Part shown: piece by piece, positions 24,612-49,944 of the stretch
Layout: every line of letters starts with the position of its first letter
How positions within the stretch are numbered: the stretch's first letter is position 1
From: Desulfobia sp.
Lineage (GTDB): Bacteria; Desulfobacterota; Desulfobulbia; Desulfobulbales; SURF-16
Direction: 5' to 3'
Assembly: GCA_046497465.1 (NCBI GenBank)
Contig: JAWOFO010000042.1
Span: forward strand, 64,651 to 128,650
Length of the DNA: 64,000 bases
Notes under the pieces: model-generated
What the model was told of the DNA's origin: nothing
Databases searched by the model: none
Seen by the model: only the letters and a program-made list of their open reading frames with translations
Position numbers and translations under genes: made by a program

Positions 24612-24625
24612 TTATCTATATCTGC

Positions 24626-26323: not shown

Positions 26324-26370
26324 CCGGCAAGAGACAGTCCTTCCCTGATCAGGATTAATGGTCTCCCGGT

Positions 26371-27006: not shown

Positions 27007-27042
27007 TGGTTTTCCTCCCTAAATACAATCTCGTTGCTTCCT

Positions 27043-36312: not shown

Positions 36313-37851
36313 TTGAATGGCGATATTAAAGCTGTCCGTTCCAGGAGAGGTCCTGAAAGTGTCTACAGTGCTGGGACAGGACGAAATCAGGCGTTTTTTT
36401 CCGTGACGAGATCTCTGAATTATATTCCGGATAATATTTTTCGAATTCATCTGATGGGGGTTGGTGGAACCGGGATGGCTGCTATGGCCGGTCTTTTGAA
36501 AAAGAAAGGCTTTGTTGTCAGCGGTTCCGATTACCAGGTATATCCACCGATGAGCCATTTTCTGGCAGCGGAAGGCATTAAGATAATGGAAAGCTACCGG
36601 CCCGAGAACCTTTCCCCTCCTCCTGATCTGGTTATTGTCGGTAACGTGATAAGAGGCGAAAATCCCGAGGCCAGAGGGCTCATGGATATGGCCATCCCTT
36701 ATGCCTCCTTTCCCCAGGCCCTCGGCCACTTTTTTCTTCGCCATAAAACTCCCGTGGTTATAAGCGGTACCCATGGCAAGACCACAACCTCCTCCATTCT
36801 TGCCACTGCCATGTATGGCATGGGATTTGATCCCGGCTTCTTGATTGGCGGGATAGTCCGGGCCTTTGGCCGGAATTTTCGGATCGGCACGGGAAGGTAC
36901 TTTGTAGTAGAAGGTGATGAGTATGATACCGCTTTTTTTGACAAGGGTCCAAAATTTCTCCATTATCAGCCCGGAATCGGGGTTGTAACCGGTATTGAAT
37001 TTGATCATGCTGATATTTACCAATCCCTTGAAGAGATCAAGGAGGCATTTCGGCGGTTTATCGGCATTATCCCCCCTGAAGGCTGTCTGGTCGCCTGTCT
37101 GGATGACCCGGTGGTCCGGGAATTGGCAGCAGGAGCAGCTTGCAGAGTGCTCAGCTATGGCACTGATCCTGCGTTTGACTGGTCTATTACCAATATCAGG
37201 GTTGAAGGGGAGGGTACTTATTTTCGGGTATTGCGGAAAAACCTTTTCTACCATGATTTTTTTATAAAAATGATCGGCCGTCACAATGCCTTAAATAGTC
37301 TGGCGGTTATTGCCGTCCTGGATAGCCTGGGAGTTTCTGCCAAGTCTGTAGCGGAGCAGCTATCTGTTTTTAAAGGGGTGCGTCGGCGCCAGGAAGTGCT
37401 GGGAGAAGTCGAAGGCATCACGGTTATTGATGATTTTGCCCACCATCCCAGCGCGGTCCGGGAAACGTTGGAGTCTTTGAACCAGGCCTATGAAGGGAGG
37501 CCTCTCGTCGTGGTTTTTGAACCCCGCACCAATTCAAGCCGCAGGTCTGTTTTTCAGGATACTTATTCCCGGGTATTTTCCAGGGCCTCTGAGGTTGTGG
37601 TCAAGGAGCCGGTCCCTCTTGCCTGCCTGCCTGATCAGGAGCTTTTTTCTGCGGTAAAACTGGTGGGGGATTTGAGACAGCGGAATATTAAGGCCAGCTG
37701 TTATTCTGATACCGGGGATATTGTCAGCTATCTGATTTCTTCTCTCAGGCCCGGAGATGTGGTGGCAATTCTGTCTAACGGAGGATTTGATAATATCCAT
37801 GAGCGGCTGCTGACAGCTCTGCAGAAAAGCTGGGTAAATAAAAATGAATGA
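36313..37851 (+). CDS. mpl: UDP-N-acetylmuramate:L-alanyl-gamma-D-glutamyl-meso-diaminopimelate ligase (murein peptide ligase)
   Basis: A Mur-ligase fold with RIHLMGVGGTGMAAMAGLL, ISGTHGKTTTSS, EGDEYDTAFFDK and DDFAHHPSA; the overall pattern is Mpl-like. The start is uncertain: the in-frame GTG at 36403 gives a more typical N-terminus than the ATG at 36313. Confidence 0.85.
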   Translation: MNGDIKAVRSRRGPESVYSAGTGRNQAFFSVTRSLNYIPDNIFRIHLMGVGGTGMAAMAGLLKKKGFVVSGSDYQVYPPMSHFLAAEGIKIMESYRPENLSPPPDLVIVGNVIRGENPEARGLMDMAIPYASFPQALGHFFLRHKTPVVISGTHGKTTTSSILATAMYGMGFDPGFLIGGIVRAFGRNFRIGTGRYFVVEGDEYDTAFFDKGPKFLHYQPGIGVVTGIEFDHADIYQSLEEIKEAFRRFIGIIPPEGCLVACLDDPVVRELAAGAACRVLSYGTDPAFDWSITNIRVEGEGTYFRVLRKNLFYHDFFIKMIGRHNALNSLAVIAVLDSLGVSAKSVAEQLSVFKGVRRRQEVLGEVEGITVIDDFAHHPSAVRETLESLNQAYEGRPLVVVFEPRTNSSRRSVFQDTYSRVFSRASEVVVKEPVPLACLPDQELFSAVKLVGDLRQRNIKASCYSDTGDIVSYLISSLRPGDVVAILSNGGFDNIHERLLTALQKSWVNKNE

Positions 37852-37867
37852 CAGTTCATTTTTATTC

Positions 37868-37896
37868 TTGACAATTGCGGCCTGGCCGGTTATCAC
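37868..37896 (+). promoter_or_regulatory. candidate sigma70 promoter of the nuo operon
   Basis: TTGACA (37868-37873), a 17-nt spacer, then TATCAC (37891-37896). AAGGAGG lies 6 nt before the GTG start of nuoA. Confidence 0.4.
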
Positions 37897-37949
37897 TGTT
37901 TTACTGAACGAACTGGTAAATTTTATTTTGCTCAAGTAAGGAGGTAATC

Positions 37950-38351
37950 GTGCCGGAACAATCACTCCTTGATCTGCTCTATCTTGCATATTTCACTCTT
38001 CTCGGCCTCTCATTTGCCCTGGGGCCCATTATAATCGTCTATCTCCTGTCACCCCGCGAGACCCGCAACATTCTCGGCAAGAGCCACCAGGCCATTGAGT
38101 GCGGTATGGTTCCCATTGGTGATGCCTGGATACGTTTTGGAATAATATTCTATCTTTACGCCCTGATGTTTCTTGCCTTTGATGTCGATGTCCTTTTTCT
38201 TTTCCCGGTTGCCATGGCCTATAACGATGCCTCCTTTGTTATCCGGGATTTTGTTGAGGTTGTTATTTTTGTAGGAATATTGTCACTGGCATTAGTTTAT
38301 GCCTGGATAAAGGGAGTCTTCAAGTGGGAACGGAAAATATATCATCAGTAG
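37950..38351 (+). CDS. nuoA: NADH-quinone oxidoreductase subunit A
   Basis: 133 aa with three TM helices and the conserved ECGM...F..RF...FYL.AL.FL.FD.. pattern. Confidence 0.9.
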
Positions 38352-38833
38352 TTCCTTCGTCATTAGTTCAGTTTGCCCCTCTGGAAAAACTGCTTAATCT
38401 GGGAAGGGCCAATTCCCTTTGGCCCATGACCTTCGGCTTGGCCTGCTGCGCCATTGAGATGATGTCAGCCGGCGGACCGCGTTTTGATCTCGCCCGTTTC
38501 GGGGCAGAGGTCTTCCGGCCTTCGCCCAGGCAGAGTGATGTTATGATAGTGGCCGGAACCGTTAATAAAAAAATGGCTCCTGCGGTAAAAACACTGTGGG
38601 ATCAGATGCTTGAGCCCAAATGGGTAATCGCTATGGGTAACTGTGCCATTTCCGGCGGTCCTTTTGCTTTTAAAGGTCAGTATAATGTAGTTGAAGGGGT
38701 TGATACTATTCTGCCCGTAGATATATATATTCCTGGCTGTCCTCCCAGACCGGAGGCTTTGTTTGAGGGGATTATGGAGCTTGAAGAGAAACTTACAGGC
38801 AAGCGGCGCTGGCCGCGAGTGGAGGCAGTATAA
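38324..38833 (+). CDS. nuoB: NADH-quinone oxidoreductase subunit B
   Basis: N2-cluster ligand motifs [20 protein letters not shown] and IPGCPPRPE. Confidence 0.95.
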
Positions 38834-39432
38834 TGGACAGGGCTCAAGTGCAGAAGGAGCTGGAAGCCTTAGCTGCTGAAGGAAAACCTGCTCCTGTGCC
38901 TGAAGAAAAAGTAGAAGTGGAAAAAGAGGAACAGGCCTCTGAGCAAGAAGAGACTGCTCCTGAGGAAGAACAGGGTAAAGACAAAAATAAAAAGAAAGGG
39001 GAAGAGGAAGAAGAGAAGCCCAGAGAGAACGGGGTCCTTGTCTTAGACCATAGGGCGCGCGGGGCACATCTGGATGCTCAGCTTAACGGTGATCAGGTGG
39101 TTGCGGCTGCGGAAATCATGCGGCGGGCGGGCCTGAGCGTGGAGGCTGTAACCGGTGTTGACTGGCTTAAAGAGAACAAGTTTGAAGTAATATACGATTA
39201 TGCTTTGTATATCGCCGGTGAAGATCTTTACCGTGTTGTTGTCAGGGCCTTGATTGATCGTGACAATCCTGATATTCCCACTATTTCCGGGGTGTTTTCA
39301 GGAGCAAACTGGCATGAGCGGGAAACCTGGGACCTGCTGGGGATAAATTTTACCGGTCACCCACAGCTTACGCGTTTCCTGCTCCCGGAAGACGCTGATT
39401 TCCATCCCCTACGTAAGGATTTTAAACCATGA
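38833..39432 (+). CDS. nuoC: NADH-quinone oxidoreductase subunit C with acidic low-complexity N-terminal extension
   Basis: The C-terminal 130 aa carry the NuoC blocks (SGVFSGANWHERETWDLLGINFTGHP...R). The first ~65 aa are Glu/Lys-rich (EEKVEVEKEEQASEQEETAPEEEQGKDKNKKKGEEEEEK). Confidence 0.9.
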   Translation: MDRAQVQKELEALAAEGKPAPVPEEKVEVEKEEQASEQEETAPEEEQGKDKNKKKGEEEEEKPRENGVLVLDHRARGAHLDAQLNGDQVVAAAEIMRRAGLSVEAVTGVDWLKENKFEVIYDYALYIAGEDLYRVVVRALIDRDNPDIPTISGVFSGANWHERETWDLLGINFTGHPQLTRFLLPEDADFHPLRKDFKP

Positions 39433-40553
39433 GCAGACTCGCCCAAAGTCAGTATCACGAGACATTCGATATCAACCTTGGCCCCCAGCATCCTGCTACT
39501 CACGGAGTCTTGAGGGTCAAGCTCACCATGGACGGTGAATACATAGTCAAGGCAGAACCGGTTCTGGGTTACATCCACCGGATGCATGAAAAGATGGGGG
39601 AGAACAGGACCTGGGCCAAGTTCCTGCCCAACCCATCCCGTATGGACTACCTTTCAGCCATGTCCTATAATCACGGTCATGTCGCCCTGGTGGAGAGGGC
39701 GGCTGGCATAGAGGTCCCGGAGAGGGCCGAGTATCTGCGGGTGATAATGGTGGAGCTAAACAGGGTCCAGAGCCATCTTCTCTGGTTCGGGGCCTTTCTG
39801 CTTGACCTGGGAGGATTTACTCCTCTTCTCTATGCCTTTGATGACAGGGAGAGAATCCTTGACCTGCTCGAGTCAGTGACCGGGTCCAGGCTGACCTACT
39901 GCTATTTCCGTTTTGGCGGAGTTTATAACGATCTGGATGATGAAGAGTCCTTTAAGACTGGAACCAAAGAGTTTATAGCCCGTCTGCGCTCCCGCATGCC
40001 AATGTATCATAATCTGGTAACCAAGAACATAATCCTCCGGAAACGTCTTGAGGGTATAGGCCCGGTATCTGCAGATATGTGCCGCAGGTATGGGGCAACC
40101 GGCCCTGTACTGCGCGGCTCCGGAGTACAGTTCGATATCCGGAAGAACGAGCCCTATTCGGCTTATCCCGACTTTGATTTTGATATCCCTGTCTATGAGG
40201 AAGGTGATTCCATGGCCCGCTACATGGTGAGAATGGATGAGATTGAGCAGTCGATGCGGATTATAGAACAGGCTCTTGATAAACTACCCGAGGGGCCGGT
40301 CAAGGCCGAGAAAGTGCCGAAAATGATCAAGCCGCCCAAAAATGACTATTATTTTGCGGTAGAGGCGGCGCGGGGCACCTTTTCTCTGCGGGCAGTAAGT
40401 GACGGGACAAATACCCCTTACCGTCTGAAGATAAGGTCTCCTACTTATTCTAATTTGAGCCTTTTTGAAGAGGCCAGCAAGGGAATGCTGCTTGCCGATG
40501 CTCTGGCCTTTATGGGCAGTCTGGATCTGGTGATCCCGGAAATTGATCGTTGA
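39429..40553 (+). CDS. nuoD: NADH-quinone oxidoreductase subunit D
   Basis: LGPQHPATHGVLR, GYIHRMHEK, and a C-terminus ending in DLVIPEIDR are diagnostic of NuoD (the 49-kDa subunit). Confidence 0.95.
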   Translation: MSRLAQSQYHETFDINLGPQHPATHGVLRVKLTMDGEYIVKAEPVLGYIHRMHEKMGENRTWAKFLPNPSRMDYLSAMSYNHGHVALVERAAGIEVPERAEYLRVIMVELNRVQSHLLWFGAFLLDLGGFTPLLYAFDDRERILDLLESVTGSRLTYCYFRFGGVYNDLDDEESFKTGTKEFIARLRSRMPMYHNLVTKNIILRKRLEGIGPVSADMCRRYGATGPVLRGSGVQFDIRKNEPYSAYPDFDFDIPVYEEGDSMARYMVRMDEIEQSMRIIEQALDKLPEGPVKAEKVPKMIKPPKNDYYFAVEAARGTFSLRAVSDGTNTPYRLKIRSPTYSNLSLFEEASKGMLLADALAFMGSLDLVIPEIDR

Positions 40554-40625
40554 ACCAAGGGTGAGGCCTGACTGTCTGTAATCTGTAACCTAATGAACCC
40601 GGAATTCTAAAGAGGAATAACTGAC

Positions 40626-41609
40626 ATGGAAGAATTTCTGCGGATAATAACCTACATAGTCTGCATATCCGCTTTTGTCGGCGCCAACCTGGCCTGGCTC
40701 GGCTGGGTGGAAAGGAAGGGCGCCGGCCGGCTTCAAAGGAGAACAGCACTGAAAGAGGTTGGGCCATTCGGCCTTCTCCAGCCCCTGGCGGACGGCCTCA
40801 AACTTATGTCCAAACAGCTTCATGTCCCTCGTGATGCTGATCGCCCCCTGTACATGCTTGCCCCGGTGATCGCCATGGTGCCCATGATAATGACCTTTGT
40901 GGTTATTCCTTTCAATGAGGGTCTTGTTCCCCGGGATTTCAATATGGGTCTTCTAGTGATTTTCGCCTTTGCCGCTCTCAGTGTTTTAGCCCTGCTTCTG
41001 GGGGGTTGGGCTTCGCGAAACAAGTATGCACTTATTTCAGCAAGCCGGGCGGTCTCTCAGAATATCGCCTACGAGATTCCCATGTTGCTTACCGCTATTA
41101 CAGTAGTAATGGCCACCGGTACCATGAATCTCACCGAGATTGTCAATCAGCAGGCAGGAACCATAATTAAATGGAATTTTCTACGCCTGGATAATTCCAT
41201 ACTCATGCCGGTGTCGTTTCTTATTTTCTTTGTATGTAGTGTAGCTGAAACCAATCGTGCCCCCTTTGATCTGGGTGAGGCGGAAAGTGAGTTGATCGCT
41301 GGATTTCATACCGAGTATTCGGGAATGGGATTCGGGCTTTTTATGATGGCTGAGTATGGCTATATACTTATAGGCTGCTGTTTTACCACTATACTGTTTC
41401 TGGGGGGCTGGCACTGTCCCTTTGGATTCTATCCGGGTATACACTGGTTCTTAATTAAAACTTATTTTTTGATCTGGGTAATTGTCTGGATCAGGTGGAC
41501 ATTTCCCAGGGTTACGGTATGGGGACTGTTGAATCTTTCCTGGATGTACCTTATCCCGGCGGCCCTGTTTAATCTGATATTGACAGGCGCGTTTCTCAAG
41601 GTGTTTTGA
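40626..41609 (+). CDS. nuoH: NADH-quinone oxidoreductase subunit H
   Basis: 327-aa polytopic protein with the GPFGLLQPLADGLKL and VAETNRAPFDLGEAESELIAGFHTEYSGM motifs. Confidence 0.95.
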   Translation: MEEFLRIITYIVCISAFVGANLAWLGWVERKGAGRLQRRTALKEVGPFGLLQPLADGLKLMSKQLHVPRDADRPLYMLAPVIAMVPMIMTFVVIPFNEGLVPRDFNMGLLVIFAFAALSVLALLLGGWASRNKYALISASRAVSQNIAYEIPMLLTAITVVMATGTMNLTEIVNQQAGTIIKWNFLRLDNSILMPVSFLIFFVCSVAETNRAPFDLGEAESELIAGFHTEYSGMGFGLFMMAEYGYILIGCCFTTILFLGGWHCPFGFYPGIHWFLIKTYFLIWVIVWIRWTFPRVTVWGLLNLSWMYLIPAALFNLILTGAFLKVF

Positions 41610-42133
41610 TCATGTCTAAATATGTTAACGATCTGTTTATCGGCGGTTACAGTTTGCTGGTGGGTATGGCGGTAACCATTATAAATTTTTTCAAACCTAC
41701 TGTAACCCTTCAATACCCACACGAGTCACTTAAGATGACCCCTCGTTACCGGGGACATGTTGAACTGATCAAGGATCCGGAAACAGGTACTCACCGCTGT
41801 ATAGCCTGCGGGATGTGTCAGAAAAACTGCCCGTCCGAGTGTATTACTATAAAGAGTAAAAAGATAGAGGGAATCAAGGGCAAAGTCCTGACCGAGTACA
41901 GATTAGACTTTACTAAATGCAGCCTCTGCGGTCAGTGTGTTGAGAACTGTAAGCCTAATGCCCTCCAGTTTTCCAAAGAGTATAACCTGGCCAGCAGGCG
42001 AAAGGAGGATTTTATTTTTGATTTGCTTAAGCGTCTGCATCCGGAAGGGGTTCCGGAGCCGAAACCAGCTGAACCTAAGGCTGAAAGCGGAGATAAAAAA
42101 GAAAAGCCGGTTAAAGAGGACAACAGCTCATGA
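41606..42133 (+). CDS. nuoI: NADH-quinone oxidoreductase subunit I
   Basis: Two 4Fe-4S ferredoxin motifs, CIACGMCQKNCP and CSLCGQCVENCP. The start overlaps the nuoH stop. Confidence 0.9.
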   Translation: MIMSKYVNDLFIGGYSLLVGMAVTIINFFKPTVTLQYPHESLKMTPRYRGHVELIKDPETGTHRCIACGMCQKNCPSECITIKSKKIEGIKGKVLTEYRLDFTKCSLCGQCVENCKPNALQFSKEYNLASRRKEDFIFDLLKRLHPEGVPEPKPAEPKAESGDKKEKPVKEDNSS

Positions 42134-42702
42134 ATCCTACACTTTTTTCACTTGAAGGCTTTGCGGGAGTAATTTTTCTCCTGTTTGTAGCCATTAGCAT
42201 GCTGGGCGCACTCGTAGCCACCTGCAGCCGCAGACTGATCAGAAGCGTAAGCGGACTGGCTCTTTGTTTTGTCGGGGTTGCCGGTATCTACTATTTTCTG
42301 GGAAGTCCTTTTGTCGCCTTGATGGAACTGTTGATCTACGTGGGTGCTGTATGTGTTACTATTACCTTTGCCATAATGCTGGCCGAACCTGATGAGATGA
42401 AGCTCATGCGGAAAAAACCCGGGTTTGGCGGTGCCTTAGGCATCCTGCTCGGGGGTGTTGTTGCCCTGGGACTGATCACCGCGGCAACCTCAGCAGAATG
42501 GGACGTGCTAACCAATGCCAAGACCACTGTAGGTTCAGTCAAGCAGATAGGGATGTCCCTGCTTACCGATTACAGTATGGTATTTGAAGTAATCTCTGTG
42601 GTCCTGCTCATTGCCATAGTGGGGTCTGTGGCCCTGGCAAGAGAAGGCAGGGATATTGGAGAGTGGGAAGAAATAGGAAGTGATACAGACAGCGAGAAGT
42701 AG
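42130..42702 (+). CDS. nuoJ: NADH-quinone oxidoreductase subunit J
   Basis: 190 aa, hydrophobic, with the YVGAV..L..F..ML pattern of NuoJ. The start overlaps the nuoI stop. Confidence 0.85.
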   Translation: MNPTLFSLEGFAGVIFLLFVAISMLGALVATCSRRLIRSVSGLALCFVGVAGIYYFLGSPFVALMELLIYVGAVCVTITFAIMLAEPDEMKLMRKKPGFGGALGILLGGVVALGLITAATSAEWDVLTNAKTTVGSVKQIGMSLLTDYSMVFEVISVVLLIAIVGSVALAREGRDIGEWEEIGSDTDSEK

Positions 42703-42758
42703 TAGAGACGGTAGTAAACCAACCGGTAATTTTATACAGTTATTGAAATACAAATCAG

Positions 42759-43088
42759 GTGGGAGAGATGCTGGCATTAAGCTCACAGTTAACAACTTAC
42801 TTAGTAATCGGTGCCCTTTTATTCGGTTTTGGTATATTCGGCATGATAAAGAGACCGACCCTGATCGGCATGCTGATCGCGGCCGAGCTCGTCCTGAGCG
42901 GCGCCTCTGTCAATTTTATGGCATTCCAGCGTTTCACAGCCCCCGACCTTGTGGTGGGTCAGATATTCACCCTGTTTATCATGGGTATAGCAGCAGCGGA
43001 AGCCGCCATAGCTATGAGCATAATTATCTGTGTATATCGTAACTATAAATCTATTGAAACCGAGGATGTGGTTGATCTGAACGGATGA
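42759..43088 (+). CDS. nuoK: NADH-quinone oxidoreductase subunit K
   Basis: About 100 aa with three TM helices, the conserved Glu-containing helices (AAELVLSG; AAAEAAIAMSII), and the ending YR...S...D....L. Confidence 0.9.
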   Translation: MGEMLALSSQLTTYLVIGALLFGFGIFGMIKRPTLIGMLIAAELVLSGASVNFMAFQRFTAPDLVVGQIFTLFIMGIAAAEAAIAMSIIICVYRNYKSIETEDVVDLNG

Positions 43089-43141
43089 TTCAATCATTTT
43101 TCTTACCATAACGTATTGAAGGTAAGGTTAAGGATAATCCC

Positions 43142-44641
43142 ATGGATAGCGTTACTGCAGCAGGCACAACAGAAATAATTACTTCAGCCAAACTTGTACT
43201 TGCACTACTTACACCTCTACTGGGTGCTTGTCTGGTAAGTTTTTCTGGCAGGAAACCCAATGTCAGAGAGATGTGGTCGGTTCTTGCGGCAGTTATTACA
43301 TTTTTACTGGTCGCCTCCATGATACCGCAAGTCTGGGATGGTAAGACCTTGTTTTATGAGATTTTCCAGATTCTGCCCGGTGTAACCGTGAGTCTGAGGG
43401 CAGATGCCCTGTCCATGGTCTTTGCCTTGATAGCATCCGTCCTCTGGATAGGGGCTGCCTTTTATTCCATGGGTTATATGAGGGCTCACAAGGCGCATTC
43501 ACAGACCCGGTTCAACACCTGTTTCGCCATTGCCATCTTTGGGGCAGTAGGTGTTGCTTTCAGCGACAATCTCTTTACCCTTTACCTGTTTTACGAAGTA
43601 GTAAGTATAAGTACCTATCCTCTGGTTGCCCATGATCAGGATAAAAAGGCCTACGTTGGCGGCAAGAAGTACATGGTTTATCTGACTACCATGGCCAAGG
43701 GATTGATCCTGCCGGCAATGGCGATCATCTATGTTATGACCGGCAGTCTTGATTTTCCGCATGATATATACTCGGGCATCATTCCTGATGACGCCAATTC
43801 GGCAATCGTGGTTATGCTCTTCATATTCTGCCTGTTCGGCTTTGCCAAGAACGGGGTCATGCCCTTTCACCACTGGCTGCCCGGGGCCATGGTTGCACCT
43901 ACACCGGTCTCCGCCCTCCTGCATGCAGTGGCTGTTGTTAAGGCAGGGGTATTCAGCACCATCCGGGTGATGCTCTACGTTTTTGGCGTAAATCTCATGG
44001 ATCTCCTAAATCTGGGCATAACTACCGCCTATTTTGTCGGTTTTACCATAATTATGGCTTCAGTTATTGCCATAACCAAGGATAATCTCAAGGCCAGGCT
44101 GGCCTATTCCACGGTCAGCCAGCTGTCCTACATCATACTGGGAGTCTGCCTGCTGACACCTCACGGTATTCAGGGAGGGATAGTGCATATAGCCAACCAC
44201 GCCTTTTCCAAGATCACTCTCTTTTTCTGTGCAGGTGCCATAATTGTCGCCCACCATAAAAAGGATATCTCCGAGATGGACGGACTGGGCAGGGCCATGC
44301 CTTTCACTTATGCCGCCTTTGCAGTTGCCTCTCTAAGTATGATAGGCGCTCCTCCGGTGGCCGGCTTCGTGACCAAATGGCAATTGCTGATGGGTACGAT
44401 TGAAGCTGGATCATTCGGTATCATTCTGATTCTTCTGGCCAGTACCCTGCTTAATGTCTGTTACTTCGGGCCCGTCGTTTACAGGGGATTTTTCTGCAAG
44501 CCTCCACCAGGGGTCACATATGACAGTATTAAGGAGGCACCTATGTCCATGGTTATACCACTGTGCTGTACGGCTATAATTTCAGTAATAATAGGAATTT
44601 ATCCTGATTTTTTTATGAACTTTGTGATTAGGGTGTTGTAA
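43142..44641 (+). CDS. extra antiporter-like (MrpD/NuoL/M/N superfamily) proton-conducting membrane subunit
   Basis: 499 aa with about 14 TM helices and the superfamily blocks FYEVVSISTYPLV, HHWLPGAMVAPTPVSALLHAVAVVKAGV and HIANHAFSKITLFFCAG. It has no NuoL-type C-terminal lateral-helix extension. Confidence 0.8.
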   Translation: MDSVTAAGTTEIITSAKLVLALLTPLLGACLVSFSGRKPNVREMWSVLAAVITFLLVASMIPQVWDGKTLFYEIFQILPGVTVSLRADALSMVFALIASVLWIGAAFYSMGYMRAHKAHSQTRFNTCFAIAIFGAVGVAFSDNLFTLYLFYEVVSISTYPLVAHDQDKKAYVGGKKYMVYLTTMAKGLILPAMAIIYVMTGSLDFPHDIYSGIIPDDANSAIVVMLFIFCLFGFAKNGVMPFHHWLPGAMVAPTPVSALLHAVAVVKAGVFSTIRVMLYVFGVNLMDLLNLGITTAYFVGFTIIMASVIAITKDNLKARLAYSTVSQLSYIILGVCLLTPHGIQGGIVHIANHAFSKITLFFCAGAIIVAHHKKDISEMDGLGRAMPFTYAAFAVASLSMIGAPPVAGFVTKWQLLMGTIEAGSFGIILILLASTLLNVCYFGPVVYRGFFCKPPPGVTYDSIKEAPMSMVIPLCCTAIISVIIGIYPDFFMNFVIRVL

Positions 44642-44892
44642 TGATAGTCTCAATTATAGAAACCCTGAGAAATAACTTAAAGTTAACCGCTGTTCTAGCT
44701 GTCGCTATTATCATTGGCCTGGCAGTATGGGGTGCTTTTTTTGTTGATATGCACCATGCCCACACAGAGGCGGAGCACCTCCCCTTCTTCTGGGCTCTGT
44801 TCGGTCTTCTGGGCGGAGCGCTCCTTATTCTGGTGGCCACCCTTCTGGGTAAGTTAGGAATTATGACCCGCGAGGATTATTACGATGATTGA
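44641..44892 (+). CDS. small two-TM membrane protein, translationally coupled between two antiporter-like genes
   Basis: 83 aa. Its ATG overlaps the upstream TAA by 1 nt, and its 3' end overlaps the next ATG. It has two hydrophobic helices separated by HHAHTEAEH. I recognise no family. Confidence 0.55.
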   Translation: MIVSIIETLRNNLKLTAVLAVAIIIGLAVWGAFFVDMHHAHTEAEHLPFFWALFGLLGGALLILVATLLGKLGIMTREDYYDD

Positions 44893-46666
44893 TATCTGGT
44901 TTCATCCAGCTCTGTATCTGCTTATAGGCGGACTACTCCTCCCTCTATTTCGGGAAGGAGTGATCAAGAAGTGCTTCATAATGGCCGTGCCCCTGGTTAC
45001 CTTTATGTCGGTTATCTACCTGCATAACGGGATATATGGAGAGGTCCGGTTTATGGACTGGCAGTTGGTTTTCGGCCGGGTTGATGCCCTTAGCAATATA
45101 TTTTGTTACATAATGGCACTGATGGCCATAATAGGGACCCTTTTCAGTCTCAATGTAGAAGAGGACTGGCATCATGTTGCAGCCTGGTACTATGTTGCAG
45201 GTTCACTGGGAGTCATTCTCAGTGCTGACTATCTTTCTCTCTTCCTGTTCTGGGAATTGATGGCCTTTGCTTCTGTTTTCCTGGTCTGGTTTGGCGGAAG
45301 ACCCGATTCAGTCGCCAGCGGTTTTCGCTATATTTTAGTTCATACCGTGGGAGGGCTTTTCCTTTTGGCCGGTATCATACTTCGTTATTATGCCACCGAT
45401 GGAGATCTCTCTTTTGTAGCCCTGAACGTTGACGCACCGGATCTGGCTACCTGGCTTATACTTATTGGATTTATTACAAACGCGGCGGTGGTTCCCATAC
45501 ACTCCTGGTTATCTGATGCCTACGCCGAGGCCTCAGTGGCAGGCGCAGTTTTTATGTGTGCCTTTACCACCAAGACCGCAGTTTATGTACTGGCCCGCGG
45601 CTTTGCCGGAATGGACATACTGATTGTCCTGGGAGGAGTTATGGCCCTGTATGCCATTATATACGGCATCATGGAGAATGACAGCCGGCGGGTATTTGCC
45701 TGGGATACAATAAGCCAGGTGGGCTACATGGTCCTCGGGGTAGGAATCGGCACAGAGTTGGCAATTAACGGTGCATGCGCCCACGCCTTTGCCCATATCC
45801 TCTATAACGGACTATTATTTATGGGTACCGGTACTGTGATATATATGACCGGGACCGCCAAGATGACAGAACTGGGTGGCCTTTACAAAAAGATGCCGCG
45901 GACCTTTGTCTATACCCTTATCGGTGGCTTATCCATAGCCGGGATTCCCTTGATGAGCGGTTTTGTCTCCAAGTCTATGATAATTGCCGCAAGTTTCGAG
46001 ACTCACCATATCTGGGCTGCTTTTGCTCTGACCCTTGCTTCTGCAGGTACTTTCCTGCTGGCCGGAGTCAAAGTTCCTTACTACATCTGGTTCAGCAGTA
46101 AAACCAGCAGTCCGGAAATATGGAAAAAAGCGGGAGACCCCCCCTGGAATATGCAGGCTGCTATGGCTGTGGCAGCTTTCTTTTGTATCTTCATAGGTTG
46201 CTATACACCTTATCTCTACGACAAGCTGCCTTTCAGTGTACACTACAATCCCTACAACGCCTATCATTTGGCAGAAGCCCTGCAGATTGCCTTATTTACC
46301 GGGGTTGCCTTCTTTTTCCTGAAGAAGCTGATCAAGCCTCAACCGACAATCAGCCTGGATCTGGACTGGTTTTACAGGATGGCTGGCCGTGGATTTCTGT
46401 GGCTGGATAAGCGGGTACTCCAGTTCATCGACACCTGCGTGGGTGGGATCTATTACTATGTGGGACTGCTGCCGTTGATGACCATATCCCGGTTCTGGTC
46501 GTGGTTTGACTGGCATGGAATAGACGGGGTGGTAGATGGGACTGCCAGGACAGTAAGAGGTCTGGGTGGAGTGGTAAGGCGTTTCCAGGCCGCTCAGATA
46601 CAGTACAGCATCTTCTATGCTGTGACCATTACTGCTTTGGCAATTTTAATTTTTGTGATTGTGTAA
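44885..46666 (+). CDS. nuoL: NuoL-like antiporter subunit (with C-terminal lateral-helix/anchor region)
   Basis: 593 aa with an antiporter core (WELMAFASVFLV, HSWLSDAYAEASVAGAVFM, HAFAHILYNGLLFMGTG). The C-terminal segment FDWHGIDGVVDGTARTVRGLGGVVRRFQAAQIQYSIFY...final TM resembles the NuoL HL-helix plus TM16 pattern (D..vVDG.VNG...........R.lQtG....Y). Confidence 0.75.
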   Translation: MIDIWFHPALYLLIGGLLLPLFREGVIKKCFIMAVPLVTFMSVIYLHNGIYGEVRFMDWQLVFGRVDALSNIFCYIMALMAIIGTLFSLNVEEDWHHVAAWYYVAGSLGVILSADYLSLFLFWELMAFASVFLVWFGGRPDSVASGFRYILVHTVGGLFLLAGIILRYYATDGDLSFVALNVDAPDLATWLILIGFITNAAVVPIHSWLSDAYAEASVAGAVFMCAFTTKTAVYVLARGFAGMDILIVLGGVMALYAIIYGIMENDSRRVFAWDTISQVGYMVLGVGIGTELAINGACAHAFAHILYNGLLFMGTGTVIYMTGTAKMTELGGLYKKMPRTFVYTLIGGLSIAGIPLMSGFVSKSMIIAASFETHHIWAAFALTLASAGTFLLAGVKVPYYIWFSSKTSSPEIWKKAGDPPWNMQAAMAVAAFFCIFIGCYTPYLYDKLPFSVHYNPYNAYHLAEALQIALFTGVAFFFLKKLIKPQPTISLDLDWFYRMAGRGFLWLDKRVLQFIDTCVGGIYYYVGLLPLMTISRFWSWFDWHGIDGVVDGTARTVRGLGGVVRRFQAAQIQYSIFYAVTITALAILIFVIV

Positions 46667-46795
46667 TGACAGGGGGAGACACAGTGAGAACTGGGAAGAG
46701 CTTAAGGAGTATTTAAACAATTTATAATTCTCGAACTGTTAACTAGAAGTTGCATCTTAAATCTTAAATCTACGCACCTTAGAGGTTTTCCGGTA

Positions 46796-48298
46796 ATGGA
46801 TTTTCTAATAATTAATGAAGGATTTCCCCTCCTCAGTACTTTGATTTTTCTGCCATTGGCAGGGGCCCTTGTACTGCTGTTTGTTTCTGACGAGAATTTG
46901 GCACGGATCTGGTCACTTATTGTGAGCGGAATAACCGCGCTCTTATCCATACCTCTGTACATCTATTTCGATCACAGCACAGCCAAGTACCAATTCGGGG
47001 AACACACCCAATGGATATCAACACTTGATATAAACTATACTCTGGGGATTGATGGTATAAGCCTTCTGCTGGTGCTACTTACAACTTTTATCATGCCCCT
47101 TTGCGTCCTGGCATCCTGGACTTATATCCAAACCAGGGTTAAGGAGTTCATGATATCAATGCTGGTGATGGAAACCGCCATGCTGGGGGTATTTATGGCC
47201 CTGGATTTTGTACTCTTCTATGTTCTCTGGGAGGCCATGCTTATCCCGATGTATCTTCTTATCGGGGTATGGGGGGGACCCAGGAAGATATACGCGTCAA
47301 TAAAATTCTTTTTATATACCCTTGCTGGTTCGGTAATGTTTCTGGTGGCGATTATCGCCTTATACCTTGAAAACGGCACTTTCAGTATCCCCATGATGAT
47401 GGGGCAGGGCTATACCATGGGTTTCCAGATTCTGATATTTCTTGCCTTTTTTCTGGCCTTTGCCATTAAGGTACCCATGTTTCCCTTCCACACCTGGCTG
47501 CCGGCCGCTCATGTAGAGGCTCCGACAGCGGGTAGTGTTATACTGGCAAGTATTCTGCTTAAAATGGGGACCTATGGCTTTTTGAGATTCTGCCTGCCTA
47601 TTACTCCACTGGCAACTATAAATCTGGCGCCCTATATCCTCTGGCTCTCTATCGCCGGGATACTCTATGGAGGATTCACCGCTCTGGCCCAGAATGATAT
47701 GAAGAAACTGATCGCCTATTCCAGTGTCGGACATATGGGATTTGTTACCCTGGGTATATTCTTCCTGAATCAAAGGGGCGTTGAAGGGGCGATCCTGCAG
47801 ATGATCAACCACGGTATTACCACCGGCGCCCTGTTCCTTTGTGTAGGAATGATCTATGAAAGGACTCACAGCCGGGAAATTAAGGATAACGCCGGTATTG
47901 CCAAACATCTGCCCCTGTTCGCGGCATTTCTCACAGTCTTTTCCCTGTCCTCGCTTGCCTTCCCGGCCACTAACAGTTTTGTCGGGGAATTCCTGGTGCT
48001 GGCCGGGGCCTTTGCTGAAAATAAAATTATTGCAGGGGCTGCCATCCCTGGCGCCGTACTGGCTGCCGCATATATGTACCGACTACTCCAGCATGTACTT
48101 TATAAAGGGGAGGGACGGCCTGATATAGTAGACCTGAATGCTCGCGAAGTGGTAACTCTTGCGCCTCTGCTTTTCTTTGTACTCTGGATTGGCCTGGCCC
48201 CCGGGCCCTTTTTAGATGTCATGCATACCAGTGTGAATTACCTGCTGAGTCAGGTTGATGTTGCTCAGGCTGCTGCACTCCAGGCTGCGGCGCTATAG
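46796..48298 (+). CDS. nuoM: NADH-quinone oxidoreductase subunit M
   Basis: 500 aa with FPLLSTLIFLPLAGA at the N-terminus and the blocks LWEAMLIPMYLLIGVWGG, FPFHTWLPAAHVEAPTAGSVILA and MINHGITTGALFLCVG. Confidence 0.9.
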   Translation: MDFLIINEGFPLLSTLIFLPLAGALVLLFVSDENLARIWSLIVSGITALLSIPLYIYFDHSTAKYQFGEHTQWISTLDINYTLGIDGISLLLVLLTTFIMPLCVLASWTYIQTRVKEFMISMLVMETAMLGVFMALDFVLFYVLWEAMLIPMYLLIGVWGGPRKIYASIKFFLYTLAGSVMFLVAIIALYLENGTFSIPMMMGQGYTMGFQILIFLAFFLAFAIKVPMFPFHTWLPAAHVEAPTAGSVILASILLKMGTYGFLRFCLPITPLATINLAPYILWLSIAGILYGGFTALAQNDMKKLIAYSSVGHMGFVTLGIFFLNQRGVEGAILQMINHGITTGALFLCVGMIYERTHSREIKDNAGIAKHLPLFAAFLTVFSLSSLAFPATNSFVGEFLVLAGAFAENKIIAGAAIPGAVLAAAYMYRLLQHVLYKGEGRPDIVDLNAREVVTLAPLLFFVLWIGLAPGPFLDVMHTSVNYLLSQVDVAQAAALQAAAL

Positions 48299-48340
48299 TT
48301 AACCAACATATTACTTAACACCTAACAACAAGGAAAAGAA

Positions 48341-49762
48341 ATGTTGTTTGCACCAGAACTTGTACTTCTAATAGGTAGTCTTCTTATATTCTTTCTCAGT
48401 TTAGGAGAAAGGAAAGGAAAGGGAGCAGAACGGCTCACAATGCTGGTAGGCTGTCTCACTGTTGTTGTCCTTCTTTTCAGTTTTAAGTCTGAAGGGACAC
48501 TGTTTTTCAAGGTATATGAGATAGATTTTTTCTCTCAACTATTTAAACTGTTAATAGTCCTGGGAATGCTCTTTGTTACCGGATTTACCAAGGACTTGAA
48601 AGGGATAGGTGAAAATATAAAACCTGAATACTTTCTGTTCATGGTCCTTTCTACCTTGGGACTGGTGATGCTGGTAAGCAGTGTGGAACTGCTTACCCTG
48701 TTTATTTCTTTGGAGCTGTCCTCCTATTGTTTGTATCTTATGGTTCCGATGCGGGATGACCGCCATGGTGACAGGGCCCAAATGGAAGGGGCCATTAAAT
48801 ATATACTTTTTGGGGTGGTTGCCACCGGGGTTATGCTGTATGGAATGAGTTTCCTCTACGGGCTGACAGGTACGACCTATCTGGAATTCCTTATTCCCGA
48901 GGTTCAGAACTTAATGGGTCAGCCTACTGCAGTTCTGGCTACAGCTATGGTAATGGGTGGTTTTTTCTTCAAACTGGCCATATTCCCCTTCCATTTCTGG
49001 GTACCTGATGTCTACCAGGGAGCCTCCAACCCAACTACCTCCTTCATCGGCACTGTTCCTAAACTGGCGGCTGTTGCCATCCTCATAAGGTTGACTATGT
49101 TCATCAGCCCTTCTGAAGGCGGCACCATGCTTACTAACATGATGATGTTACTGGCCATATTTTCCATGTTTTACGGAAACCTGGCCGCCCTTGTCCAGAA
49201 GGACATTAAGCGTATGCTGGGTTTTTCCGGGATCGCTCATGCCGGTTTTATCCTCGTTGGCCTCCTTACTCTCAAAACTACGGGTATGGCAACTTCACTG
49301 TACTACATCATCGGCTATGTTGTTATGAACCTTGCCTGCTTCCTGGTTATTTGCCAAGTCTCCAGCAAAGGTGAAAATTTACTGGTAGCCGATTTCAACG
49401 GCCTGCACAAAAGGGCACCTCTTCTCGCTTTGACACTCCTAGTCGGAATGATGGCTCTGGCAGGCATTCCTCCTTTTGTTGGTTTTATGGGCAAATTCAT
49501 GTTGTTGGTCGGCGCACTGGATGAAGGCTATATCACCCTGGTAATTCTGGCCGCCATAAACACTGCTATTGCTCTTTTCTACTACCTCTCCGTGGTGAAG
49601 GCCGCCTATTGCGAGGCCCCTGAAAACCATGACAAGGCCGCCATTCCGGATGGGATGGTTAATGCTTTAAGTGTCATTCTCATGATAGTTATTATTATTA
49701 TGGGTGTGGCCCCGGATAAGTTTATGTCTCTTACTACTATGGCGGTTAACTCTCTATTTTAA
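48341..49762 (+). CDS. nuoN: NADH-quinone oxidoreductase subunit N
   Basis: 473 aa with the blocks SLELSSYCLY, FPFHFWVPDVYQGASNPTTSFI and GIAHAGFILVG. It is the last gene of the operon. Confidence 0.9.
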   Translation: MLFAPELVLLIGSLLIFFLSLGERKGKGAERLTMLVGCLTVVVLLFSFKSEGTLFFKVYEIDFFSQLFKLLIVLGMLFVTGFTKDLKGIGENIKPEYFLFMVLSTLGLVMLVSSVELLTLFISLELSSYCLYLMVPMRDDRHGDRAQMEGAIKYILFGVVATGVMLYGMSFLYGLTGTTYLEFLIPEVQNLMGQPTAVLATAMVMGGFFFKLAIFPFHFWVPDVYQGASNPTTSFIGTVPKLAAVAILIRLTMFISPSEGGTMLTNMMMLLAIFSMFYGNLAALVQKDIKRMLGFSGIAHAGFILVGLLTLKTTGMATSLYYIIGYVVMNLACFLVICQVSSKGENLLVADFNGLHKRAPLLALTLLVGMMALAGIPPFVGFMGKFMLLVGALDEGYITLVILAAINTAIALFYYLSVVKAAYCEAPENHDKAAIPDGMVNALSVILMIVIIIMGVAPDKFMSLTTMAVNSLF

Positions 49763-49825: not shown

Positions 49826-49853
49826 TTGACAGAATAAAAAAACAGATTATACT
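49826..49853 (+). promoter_or_regulatory. candidate sigma70 promoter for tRNA-Gly / rimP-nusA-infB
   Basis: TTGACA (49826-49831), a 16-nt spacer, then TATACT (49848-49853). The element ends 15 nt before the tRNA. Confidence 0.5.
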
Positions 49854-49868
49854 TAAATTCATGCGGTA

Positions 49869-49944
49869 GCGGACATAGCTCAGCTGGTAGAGTACAAGCT
49901 TCCCAAGCTTGGTGTCGCGGGTTCGAGCCCCGTTGTCCGCTCCA
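49869..49944 (+). tRNA. tRNA-Gly (anticodon CCC)
   Basis: Acceptor gcggaca/tgtccgc, anticodon stem-loop caagc-ttCCCaa-gcttg, T-arm gcggg-ttcgagc-cccgt, discriminator U, and an encoded CCA. Confidence 0.9.

What the first reader, a model, noticed from the sequence alone, without database searches (positions are those of the whole stretch)
37950..49762. Complex-I-like operon without the NADH-oxidising N-module (no nuoE/F/G) but with four antiporter-like subunits
The gene order is nuoA-B-C-D-H-I-J-K, then an antiporter-like gene, an 83-aa gene, then a nuoL-like gene, nuoM and nuoN. Most junctions overlap or are tightly spaced, and a TTGACA-type promoter lies upstream.

nuoD is followed after 72 nt by nuoH, so nuoEFG are not simply missed ORFs. 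Eleven-subunit Nuo-like complexes that must use a donor other than NADH are known, for example ferredoxin or another module as in NDH-1/Fpo relatives. Complex I variants with an additional NuoM-like pump have also been described.

This cluster combines both traits. In a sulfate-reducer context that bears on how many ions are moved per electron pair, and from which donor.
Basis: partly seen in the sequence, partly recalled or inferred. Interest (0 to 1): 0.6.

Follow-up and report, generated by a model that had tools for sequence, protein, structure and literature searches.

The report
Complex I operon, four pump subunits
This is a real 13-gene operon for a complex-I-like respiratory enzyme that lacks the NADH-binding module and has four pump-like membrane subunits, but this design is already catalogued in sulfate reducers and rhizobia, so the window adds a new example plus a few apparently unreported details.

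Summary
Window 37950-49762 (+) encodes nuoA-B-C-D-H-I-J-K, a 499-aa antiporter-like protein (X), an 83-aa two-helix protein (s), a 593-aa antiporter-like protein with a NuoL-type tail (Y), then nuoM and nuoN. No nuoEFG lies between nuoD and nuoH, elsewhere in the window, or within 10 kb of the X gene in the 84 related loci fetched by then.

The extra subunit is not a duplicated NuoM. X belongs with NuoL/MrpA. Y forms its own deep clade. X-s-Y is a cassette that replaces NuoL.

The same cassette sits in the Sinorhizobium meliloti pSymA cluster (X 54%, s 43%, Y 46% identity), which does carry nuoEFG. That cluster is the published 'Green Complex I', in which two MrpD-like subunits replace NuoL. 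A 'NUO11+M' operon was already catalogued for Desulfovibrio africanus in 2015.

The gene order is conserved in 72 of 80 Desulfobulbales-type loci and in Fundidesulfovibrio. It is therefore a new member of a known kind.

I did not find three details in the papers I could read:
- the conserved small subunit s;
- an invariant Lys-to-Asn change at the TM7 position of Y;
- the cassette's presence in an Mrp-like operon and in an archaeal complex-I-like cluster.

The electron donor (probably ferredoxin), the subunit order and the pumping stoichiometry remain inferred.

The parts
37869..37896 (+). Promoter-like site (TTGACA, 17 nt, TATCAC), about 55 nt upstream of nuoA. An AAGGAGG ribosome-binding site lies at 37939-37945.
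   Evidence: Read directly from the sequence. The automated scan listed only a weaker overlapping 9/12 site at 37848-37875. This is a consensus match only; function is not shown.
37950..38351 (+). nuoA (133 aa)
   Evidence: Pfam Oxidored_q4, E 6.8e-27.
38324..38833 (+). nuoB (169 aa). Cluster N2 ligands are present: C41, C42, C107, C139.
   Evidence: Pfam Oxidored_q6, E 6e-32. NCBIfam NuoB 234 bits, cutoff 116. Cysteine positions.
38833..39432 (+). nuoC (199 aa), with a Lys/Glu-rich N-terminal extension of about 70 aa.
   Evidence: Pfam Complex1_30kDa on residues 86-198. Sequence.
39429..40553 (+). nuoD (374 aa). It is the quinone-reductase type: only two cysteines, so no NiFe ligand motifs, and the QHPxxHG and MDY motifs are present.
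   Evidence: Pfam Complex1_49kDa, E 1e-89. NCBIfam NuoD NF004739 437 bits, cutoff 360. Sequence.
40626..41609 (+). nuoH (327 aa). It follows nuoD after 72 nt.
   Evidence: Pfam NADHdh, E 1.5e-108.
41606..42133 (+). nuoI (175 aa). It has two CxxCxxCxxxC motifs for two 4Fe-4S clusters and a charged C-terminal tail.
   Evidence: Fer4 families. TIGR01971 NuoI 109.5 bits, just under its cutoff of 113. Cysteines at 65/68/71/75 and 105/108/111/115.
42130..42702 (+). nuoJ (190 aa)
   Evidence: Pfam Oxidored_q3, E 3.5e-32.
42759..43088 (+). nuoK (109 aa). Both membrane glutamates are present. The true start may lie a few codons downstream.
   Evidence: Pfam Oxidored_q2, E 2.6e-19. Sequence. The public annotation of the 99.8%-identical contig calls a 106-aa product.
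43142..44641 (+). X (499 aa): a NuoL/MrpA-class antiporter-like subunit without a lateral-helix tail. It carries the full charged axis: E152, K236, K267, H349, H353, K357, K412.
   Evidence: Pfam Proton_antipo_M, plus a weak Proton_antipo_N hit. NCBIfam NF006236 788 bits, cutoff 663. Best PDB sequence matches are MbhH, NdhF and MrpA. Weaker plasmid hits are mostly annotated MrpA or NuoL. The X clade has 100% bootstrap and is sister to NuoL+MrpA at 66%. The key residues are invariant in 81/81 orthologues.
44641..44892 (+). s (83 aa): a conserved small membrane protein with two predicted TM helices (13-34 and 48-71). It has an invariant D36..A40-H41-T42..E45 loop and a G-I-x-T-R-E-D-Y-Y-D tail. 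It is translationally coupled to both X and Y.
   Evidence: No Pfam, NCBIfam or PDB match. It is found between X and Y in 77 of 80 loci. A profile search found 659 clusters, all 51-201 aa among the best 150 listed. AF2 model has pLDDT 80. It is annotated 'hypothetical protein' in S. meliloti.
44885..46666 (+). Y (593 aa): a deep-branching MrpD/MbsH'-like core joined to a NuoL-type tail (TM15, lateral helix, TM16). The TM7 lysine is replaced by Asn199. E124, K230, H300, H304 and K363 are kept.
   Evidence: NCBIfam NF009310 691 bits, cutoff 564. NuoL models align end to end, residues 58-591. The best PDB sequence match is MbsH' 6u8y_X. In the AF2 model TM15 is 459-483, the lateral helix about 493-570 and TM16 about 571-592; the tail has low confidence. 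N199 is seen in 71/72 orthologues. The Y clade has 100% bootstrap.
46796..48298 (+). nuoM (500 aa), with the canonical TM12 glutamate.
   Evidence: TIGR01972 598 bits and NF004499 593 bits, cutoff 585. Alignment. NuoM clade has 100% bootstrap.
48341..49762 (+). nuoN (473 aa), the last gene of the operon.
   Evidence: TIGR01770 363 bits, cutoff 333. NuoN clade has 100% bootstrap. A separate promoter-like site and a tRNA-Gly gene follow.

Best explanation
The locus encodes an N-module-less ('NUO11-type') complex-I-like menaquinone reductase with a 'Green Complex I'-type distal membrane arm.

**Architecture.** NuoL is replaced by a three-gene cassette:
- X is a NuoL/MrpA-class pump with a complete charged axis but no tail.
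- s is a conserved 83-aa two-helix subunit.
- Y is a deep-branching MrpD/MbsH'-like subunit. It carries the only lateral helix and has Asn in place of the TM7 lysine.

With NuoM and NuoN this makes four antiporter-like subunits.

**Shown.** Gene content, the orthology relations, the conserved residues, and the absence of nuoEFG in and around the operon.

**Inferred.**
- Electrons enter the NuoI/NuoB iron-sulfur chain from a low-potential carrier, most likely reduced ferredoxin, and reduce menaquinone at NuoD/NuoB/NuoH.
- That redox drop (about -81 kJ per electron pair at standard conditions) is large enough to drive one ion more than the canonical four, or to run the enzyme in reverse.
- My preferred physical order is H/A/J/K - N - M - Y - X. 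Y's helix would clamp Y, M and N, and X would be held at the tip with the help of s.
- Y may act as a relay rather than a full pump.
For: **Identity of all 13 genes.**

**Q-module looks functional.**
- NuoB has the tandem cysteines plus two more.
- NuoI has two four-cysteine motifs.
- NuoD lacks NiFe ligand motifs and keeps QHPxxHG and MDY.

**No NuoEFG.**
- tblastn found none in the window or the 84 loci fetched by then.
- D-H gaps are 12-372 nt in 70 loci.

**Conserved order.**
- 54 complete and 18 truncated of 80 loci, including cultured Desulfobulbus, Desulfogranum and Desulfurivibrio.
- The same order occurs in Fundidesulfovibrio magnetotacticus.

**Orthology to the rhizobial arm.** S. 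meliloti pSymA carries J-K-X(54%)-s(43%)-Y(46%)-M(55%)-N-A-B-C-D-E-F-G.

**Literature.**
- Green Complex I means two MrpD-like subunits replacing NuoL (10.1101/2021.11.15.468770).
- 'NUO11+M' is catalogued for Desulfovibrio africanus (PMC4758237).
- Ferredoxin is the proposed donor for nuoEFG-less Nuo (PMC4287179, PMC11543930).
- The standard free energy of ferredoxin to menaquinone is -81.06 kJ (PMC11543930, Table 1).

**Phylogeny.** X clade 100%, sister to NuoL+MrpA at 66%. Y clade 100%. M and N clades 100% each.

**Key residues.**

**Lateral helix.** Only Y has one. All known complexes of this superfamily use one helix to tie their antiporter-like subunits together (PMC8165549).
Against: - **Donor untested.** The rest of the genome is not available, and the orthologous arm in rhizobia works with NuoEFG. 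A distantly encoded N-module cannot be excluded.
- **Subunit order not determined.**
  - Y's TM15-to-TM16 linker is 88 aa. It is 75 aa in E. coli NuoL and about 78 aa in the three-pump archaeal Y (my reading).
  - Paracoccus NuoL is only about 3 aa longer than E. coli over the aligned C-terminal region.
  - The excess over those references is thus about 10-18 aa. That is roughly half the 26-aa insertion reported per extra subunit, so it fits neither three nor four spanned subunits cleanly.
- **Tail model is weak.** The tail of the AF2 model has pLDDT 40-60.
- **No direct evidence of use.** I have no expression, assembly or stoichiometry data.
- **Pump count uncertain.** The Lys-to-Asn change may mean the complex has three, not four, working pumps of the antiporter type.
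Confidence: 0.72

Rival explanations
1. The enzyme is an ordinary NADH dehydrogenase. NuoE, NuoF and NuoG are encoded elsewhere in the genome and dock onto this 13-gene core, as in organisms with split nuo operons.
For: - The orthologous X-s-Y arm in S. meliloti sits in one cluster with nuoE, nuoF and nuoG.
- Desulfurobacterium HR11 keeps nuoEFG in a separate operon from nuoABCDHIJKLMN (PMC12724263).
- Only 64 kb of this genome could be inspected.
Against: - No NuoE/F/G homologue in the window or within 10 kb of the X gene in any of the 84 loci fetched by then.
- In sulfate reducers nuoEFG genes are reported as absent from the operon (PMC4287179), rare among 95 genomes (PMC4046663), or tied to Hdr, Mvh, Fdh or Etf genes rather than to Nuo (PMC4046663).
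Confidence: 0.15
2. X-s-Y is a sodium/proton antiporter (Mrp-type) module, as its database names say. The complex would then move or exchange sodium, as in MBH and MBS, rather than pump an extra proton.
For: - NCBIfam and PGAP name X and Y 'monovalent cation/H+ antiporter subunit D'.
- An X-s-Y cassette lies in a true Mrp-like operon with MnhE, MrpF, MrpG, MbhD/MbhE/MnhB and MrpC genes (L088).
- The closest solved relatives are MbhH, MbsH', MrpA and MrpD.
Against: - The operon has no MrpE, MrpF, MrpG or MrpB homologue. All other genes are Nuo.
- In the review's picture, antiporter-like subunits carry proton paths, and sodium goes through a separate Na module (PMC8165549).
- The Mrp-operon Y keeps the TM7 lysine, while every Nuo-linked Y has Asn. 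The two contexts are therefore not equivalent.
Confidence: 0.08
3. It is a '2M'-type complex I, meaning a NuoM duplication with an elongated NuoL helix. This is the analogy the first reader drew.
For: There are four antiporter-like genes. Y's helix is somewhat longer than that of E. coli NuoL.
Against: - X and Y lie outside the NuoM clade, which has 100% bootstrap.
- The single NuoM has the canonical TM12 glutamate, whereas X and Y have lysine there.
- The helix excess over E. coli is 13-18 aa, not the 26 aa reported for 2M complexes.
- The paper that names both types treats Green Complex I and 2M as distinct (10.1101/2021.11.15.468770).
Confidence: 0.03

Closest known systems
Green Complex I of rhizobia (S. 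meliloti pSymA second nuo cluster; Degli Esposti & Martinez Romero 2016, as described in 10.1101/2021.11.15.468770 and PMC7415380)
   Same: - Two 'MrpD-like' genes stand in place of nuoL between nuoK and nuoM.
- They are orthologous: X 54%, Y 46%, M 55% identity, and each clade has 100% bootstrap.
- The same small gene lies between them, with the same 4-nt and 8-nt overlaps.
- Y has the same TM7 Asn and the same helix length.
   Different: - The rhizobial cluster carries nuoE, nuoF and nuoG.
- Its order is rearranged: J-K-X-s-Y-M-N-A-B-C-D-E-F-G, with H and I on the other strand.
- The window keeps the canonical A-to-N order and has no N-module.
NUO11 and 'NUO11+M' operons of anaerobes (for example Desulfovibrio africanus in PMC4758237; nuoEFG-less Nuo of Desulfovibrio gigas in PMC4287179)
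   Same: - An eleven-subunit core without NuoEFG, with one additional antiporter-like gene, in sulfate reducers.
- Ferredoxin is the proposed donor.
- A Desulfovibrionaceae member, Fundidesulfovibrio, has exactly the window's gene order.
   Different: - The label '+M' treats the extra gene as a NuoM copy. Here it is part of an X-s-Y cassette that is not NuoM.
- I could not inspect the D. africanus operon itself.
2M complex I (Chadwick et al. 2018, as described in PMC12342949 and 10.1101/2021.11.15.468770)
   Same: It has four antiporter-like subunits. The proposed effect is one more ion per cycle, or easier reverse electron flow to ferredoxin.
   Different: There the extra subunit is a second NuoM, and NuoL is retained with a 26-aa helix insertion. 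Here NuoL is replaced outright. The original paper was not available to me.
MBS and Mrp membrane modules (PDB 6u8y, 6z16, 7qru; review PMC8165549)
   Same: They are the closest solved relatives of X and Y. The subunit pair includes one that carries the lateral helix. An X-s-Y cassette also occurs in an Mrp-like operon (L088).
   Different: - The window has no MrpE, F, G or B-type sodium-module genes.
- The peripheral arm is of the quinone-reducing Nuo type.
- MbsH' and MrpD keep a lysine where Y has Asn.

Membership tests
Complex-I-like enzyme without N-module (NUO11 type) | Genes for NuoA, B, C, D, H, I, J, K plus antiporter-like subunits in one operon. | tested here: met
   Pfam and NCBIfam hits for every gene. 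Junctions are tight or overlapping.
Complex-I-like enzyme without N-module (NUO11 type) | Quinone-reductase Q-module: N2 ligands in NuoB, two 4Fe-4S motifs in NuoI, and no NiFe ligands in NuoD. | tested here: met
   NuoB has C41, C42, C107, C139. NuoI has two four-cysteine motifs. NuoD has only two cysteines and keeps QHPxxHG and MDY.
Complex-I-like enzyme without N-module (NUO11 type) | No nuoE, nuoF or nuoG in the operon. | tested here: met
   The D-H gap is 72 nt. tblastn found no hit in the window or the 84 loci.
Complex-I-like enzyme without N-module (NUO11 type) | No NuoEFG module anywhere in the genome that serves this complex. | not testable with these tools
   Only the 64-kb window is available. 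The matching public MAG contigs are short.
Green Complex I | Two MrpD-like subunits replace the standard NuoL. | tested here: met
   X and Y lie between nuoK and nuoM, with no separate nuoL. They are orthologous to the S. meliloti pSymA pair.
Green Complex I | Rearranged gene order, as in rhizobia. | tested here: not met
   The window has the canonical order A-B-C-D-H-I-J-K-...-M-N. pSymA has J-K-X-s-Y-M-N-A-B-C-D-E-F-G.
Green Complex I | NADH-oxidising NuoEFG present in the cluster. | tested here: not met
   Present on pSymA and absent here.
2M complex I | A second NuoM paralogue. | tested here: not met
   X and Y fall outside the NuoM clade, which has 100% bootstrap.
2M complex I | An insertion of about 26 aa in the lateral helix of the tail-bearing subunit. 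| tested here: inconclusive
   Y's linker is 13-18 aa longer than that of E. coli NuoL (my own reading of helix boundaries). Paracoccus NuoL is about 3 aa longer than E. coli.
Mrp (CPA3) antiporter | MrpE, MrpF, MrpG and MrpB-type subunits alongside the MrpA/MrpD-type subunits. | tested here: not met
   None in the operon. They are present in the Mrp-like relative L088.

The most novel reading that the evidence does not exclude
X-s-Y is a portable, ancient three-part 'arm-extension' cassette: a terminal pump, a dedicated two-helix adaptor subunit, and a helix-bearing relay subunit that has lost the TM7 lysine whenever it is plugged into a Nuo-type enzyme. The cassette has been swapped between Mrp-like antiporters, archaeal complex-I-like enzymes, rhizobial NADH-dependent complex I and the nuoEFG-less enzymes of sulfate reducers and relatives. 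The small subunit and the Asn substitution would then be the mechanistic key to how a fourth pump is coupled without a full-length lateral helix.
Probability: 0.4. Interest if true: 0.55.

Novelty: new member of a known kind. Interest (0 to 1): 0.35.

Why it matters
Complex I variants with more than three antiporter-like subunits are the natural test of how pump number sets ion stoichiometry. In the papers and structure libraries I could search, none has been purified or solved.

This variant is found in at least 564 stretches of species-representative genomes. The best 80 are nearly all Desulfobulbales, including cultured sulfate reducers and sulfur disproportionators. It also occurs in Desulfovibrionaceae and, with an N-module, in rhizobia.

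If it takes ferredoxin and moves five ions per electron pair, or runs backwards to make reduced ferredoxin, energy budgets for these organisms would change. Public annotation currently calls X and Y 'Na+/H+ antiporter subunit D' and s 'hypothetical protein', which hides the complex from metabolic reconstructions.

For this particular window the finding is an instance of a catalogued design, not a discovery.

Tried and rejected
1. **X-s fusion proteins.** I checked whether X homologues of 559-570 aa are X-s fusions. They only carry His-rich C-terminal tails.
2. **Matches for s.** Pfam, NCBIfam and PDB gave only chance-level hits, such as integrin TM segments.
3. **Y's tail against PDB.** A sequence search with the tail alone found nothing.
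4. **Foldseek with the Y model.** It matched every antiporter-like subunit about equally and did not discriminate between them.
5. **A word-indexed search with s.** It found only 9 proteins. The profile search was needed to see the family.
6. **Original papers.** The key originals (Chadwick 2018, Pereira 2011, Degli Esposti & Martinez Romero 2016) are not held in the library. I rely on how other papers describe them.
7. **Literature phrases.** Searches for phrases such as 'fourth antiporter-like subunit' found nothing relevant.
8. **Split nuoM in the public contig.** The split nuoM in the 99.8%-identical contig L084 is a run of N, not a pseudogene.

Full report
**1.

Pfam and NCBIfam identify NuoA, B, C, D, H, I, J and K, then three unnamed genes, then NuoM and NuoN.
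- NuoM: TIGR01972 598 bits, and NF004499 593 bits against a cutoff of 585.
- NuoN: TIGR01770 363 bits against a cutoff of 333.

Junctions (from the coordinates):
- Overlaps: B/C 1 nt, C/D 4, H/I 4, I/J 4, X/s 1, s/Y 8.
- Gaps: D-H 72 nt, J-K 56, K-X 53, Y-M 129, M-N 42.

Upstream, a TTGACA hexamer at 37869 is followed 17 nt later by TATCAC. An AAGGAGG site precedes the GTG start. This is a consensus match only.

The flanks are housekeeping genes. A Mur ligase lies upstream. Downstream come a promoter-like site, a tRNA-Gly gene, and rimP-nusA-infB.

**2. No N-module nearby**

The 72-nt D-H gap cannot hold nuoEFG. tblastn with E. coli NuoE, NuoF and NuoG (E <= 1e-3) gave no hit in the 64-kb window or in the 84 related loci fetched by then, each reaching up to 10 kb either side of the X gene.

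The Q-module looks functional:
- NuoB has the tandem cysteines C41 and C42, plus C107 and C139.
- NuoI has two four-cysteine motifs.
- NuoD has only two cysteines, so it has no NiFe ligand motifs, and it keeps the QHPxxHG and MDY motifs.

**3. What the three unnamed genes are**

*X (499 aa)*
- It passes the NCBIfam equivalog NF006236 (788 bits, cutoff 663).
- Beyond its own family it scores best against MrpA and NuoL models.
- Its closest solved relatives by sequence are MbhH, NdhF and MrpA.
- Its weaker plasmid hits are mostly annotated MrpA or NuoL.
- It has the NuoL/MrpA-style PTPVSALLHA motif.
- It carries every residue of the charged axis: TM5 E152, TM7 K236, TM8 K267, TM11 H349, H353 and K357, and TM12 K412. 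All are invariant in 81 of 81 orthologues.
- It has no C-terminal extension.

*Y (593 aa)*
- It passes NF009310 (691 bits, cutoff 564).
- NuoL models align to it end to end, residues 58-591.
- Its core is closest to MbsH' (6u8y_X) and MrpD.
- An AlphaFold2 model (mean pLDDT 76; core blocks mostly 80-95) shows the 14-helix core, then TM15 (459-483), a long lateral helix (about 493-570, low confidence) and TM16.
- The tail carries the WFDW-x-IDGVVDG motif. The matching stretch of Paracoccus NuoL reads VIDGTINGVA.
- The TM7 position is Asn199. It is lysine in E. coli NuoL, NuoM and NuoN and in MbsH' and MrpD.
- The Asn is present in 71 of 72 orthologues. It is also present in the Fundidesulfovibrio, S. 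meliloti and archaeal Y proteins, but not in the Y of an Mrp-like operon, which keeps lysine.

*s (83 aa)*
- It has no family or structure match.
- The model shows two helices (13-34 and 48-71) joined by a loop (pLDDT 80).
- Invariant residues include D36, A40-H41-T42 and E45, and a G-I-x-T-R-E-D-Y-Y-D tail.
- A profile search of 1.84 billion representative proteins found 659 clusters at E <= 0.001. The best 150 are all 51-201 aa, and the longer ones I inspected showed no intact fusion to a pump subunit.

**4. Phylogeny**

I built an NJ tree from 440 columns with 100 bootstraps.
- NuoM clade: 100%, with the window, Fundidesulfovibrio, S. meliloti and E. coli.
- NuoN clade: 100%.
- X clade: 100%, sister to E. 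coli NuoL plus a bona fide MrpA at 66%.
- Y clade: 100%, a separate deep branch.

The fourth subunit is therefore not a NuoM duplicate. This is a distance tree with thin reference sampling. The clade memberships are robust, but the deep branching order is not.

**5. Distribution**
- The best 80 loci are nearly all Desulfobulbales. They include Desulfobulbus propionicus, D. elongatus, D. rhabdoformis, Desulfogranum marinum, Desulfurivibrio dismutans and Desulfocapsa.
- 54 loci show the full A-B-C-D-H-I-J-K-X-s-Y-M-N order, and 18 more are contig-truncated but consistent.
- Three loci have a more divergent core with the order K-M-X-s-Y-N.
- One MAG contig carries two clusters.
- Fundidesulfovibrio magnetotacticus (Desulfovibrionaceae) has the identical 13-gene order.
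- The window itself matches a Thermodesulfobacteriota MAG at 99.8%.

**6. The cassette elsewhere**

| Context | Gene order or content | Identity to window |
|---|---|---|
| S. meliloti 1021 and ml21, pSymA | J-K-X-s-Y-M-N-A-B-C-D-E-F-G, with H and I on the other strand | X 54%, s 43%, Y 46%, M 55% |
| Archaeal-type genome | NuoB, fused NuoC/D, H, I, J, K, X, s, Y, one NuoN-like gene (three pumps) | X 45%, Y 48% |
| Metagenomic Mrp-like operon | MnhE, MrpF, MrpG, MbhD/E-MnhB, MrpC, an MrpD-like gene, X, s, Y | Y 39% |

PGAP annotates the S. meliloti genes as 'cation/H+ antiporter subunit D family', 'hypothetical protein' and 'Na+/H+ antiporter subunit D'. X-s-Y is therefore a portable unit.

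**7. What the literature already says**
- Yu, Chadwick and colleagues (10.1101/2021.11.15.468770) state that complex I with one extra pump is known in two forms. One is '2M', with an extra nuoM. [quoted passage not shown] They cite Degli Esposti & Martinez Romero 2016.
- They also report a 26-aa helix insertion where a further pump is added.
- Degli Esposti (PMC4758237) labels the Desulfovibrio africanus operon 'NUO11+M'.
- The D. gigas genome paper (PMC4287179) notes a Nuo operon lacking nuoEFG and cites Pereira 2011 for ferredoxin as the likely donor.
- A review (PMC8165549) states that the lateral helix ties together all antiporter-like subunits in every solved member.

Both traits, and their combination in a sulfate reducer, are thus on record. 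The pSymA comparison in section 6 links the window directly to the Green-type arm. I could not read the three original papers, so I cannot say whether s or the Asn substitution is mentioned there.

**8. How it probably works (inference)**

Electrons from a low-potential carrier enter at NuoI/NuoB and reduce menaquinone. Ferredoxin is the likely carrier, by precedent for nuoEFG-less enzymes.

The standard free energy for ferredoxin to menaquinone is -81 kJ per pair (PMC11543930, Table 1). My own estimate from textbook midpoint potentials for NADH to menaquinone is about -47 kJ. At 15-17 kJ per proton, a fifth ion is affordable only with ferredoxin.

The same arm could equally drive reverse electron flow.

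**9. Where the subunits sit is unresolved**

I measured linker lengths between TM15 and TM16 by reading hydrophobic segments. Paracoccus comes from an HMMER alignment to E. coli.

| Protein | Pumps in the gene cluster | Linker (aa) |
|---|---|---|
| Window Y | 4 | 88 |
| E. coli NuoL | 3 | 75 |
| Paracoccus NuoL | 3 | about 78 (3 aa longer than E. coli over the aligned region) |
| Archaeal Y | 3 | 78 |
| Mrp-operon Y | 3 | 70 |

The excess over those references is about 10-18 aa, roughly half of one subunit's worth. I favour the order N-M-Y-X, with X at the tip and s as an adaptor, but N-M-X-Y is not excluded.

Y's missing lysine may make it a relay rather than a full pump. In that case the gain in stoichiometry is uncertain.

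**10. Verdict**

The finding is real and correctly described at the gene level. It is wrong in treating the extra pump as NuoM-like, and in implying that the combination is new.

It is a new member of a known kind, with three small additions: the s subunit, the conserved Asn, and the cassette's wider distribution. These would be worth a structural follow-up.

Noticed in passing
window 49826-49944: The best sigma-70-like site of the region (TTGACA, 16 nt, TATACT; 11 of 12) lies 64 nt after the nuoN stop. A tRNA-Gly(CCC) gene follows directly at 49869-49944, then rimP-nusA-infB-rbfA-truB-pnp. This marks the 3' boundary of the nuo operon.
   Followed up: partly
window 24000-33240: A stretch of 55% GC, against 43-52% elsewhere, holds two tRNA genes (24526-24608 and 24626-24715), a Na_H_antiporter-family gene, a PEP-CTERM protein (26371-27006, minus strand) and a 2065-aa FG-GAP/Ig-like/ASH repeat protein (27043-33240, minus strand). 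It may be an acquired surface-protein island.
   Followed up: no
window 20108-21469 (-): An ATP sulfurylase (sat) gene. It is the only sulfur-metabolism marker I saw in the window.
   Followed up: no
window 38833-39040 and 42040-42133: NuoC has a Lys/Glu-rich low-complexity N-terminal extension of about 70 aa, and NuoI has a charged C-terminal tail. Both lie on the peripheral arm, where an unknown donor would have to dock.
   Followed up: no
L032, L039, L040; L039 and L063 (contig CAZKBZ010000011.1): A second operon type has a divergent Nuo core (27-56% identity to the window) but a cassette and NuoM that are 61-70% identical (s 41-45%), in the order K-M-X-s-Y-N. One Desulfobulbus MAG contig carries both operon types about 32 kb apart.
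   Followed up: partly
L090 27629-28069; L087 4870-5265: A CBS-domain protein gene sits next to nuoI both in the S. meliloti Green cluster and in the archaeal X-s-Y cluster. It is absent from the window's operon.
   Followed up: no
L084 about 7470-7479 (window 47722-47741): The public contig that is 99.8% identical to the window has a run of ten N inside nuoM. Its annotation therefore splits nuoM into two genes. This is an assembly artefact, not a pseudogene.
   Followed up: yes
P0053, P0062, P0080 (homologues of X): Some X orthologues of 559-570 aa carry histidine-rich, repeat-like C-terminal tails of about 70 aa with unknown role.
   Followed up: partly
H29, H30 (Haloterrigena and Natronorubrum plasmids): Haloarchaeal plasmids encode X homologues at 45% identity. 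I did not inspect their gene context.
   Followed up: no
L087 5530-7353 and 9171-10004: In one archaeal assembly the complex-I-like cluster is interrupted by DUF1016/YhcG and Bro-N genes, which split nuoJ and separate X from s. This could be mobile-element insertion or misassembly. In the related 1.39-Mb contig L086, s, Y and a NuoN-like gene have no X immediately upstream.
   Followed up: no
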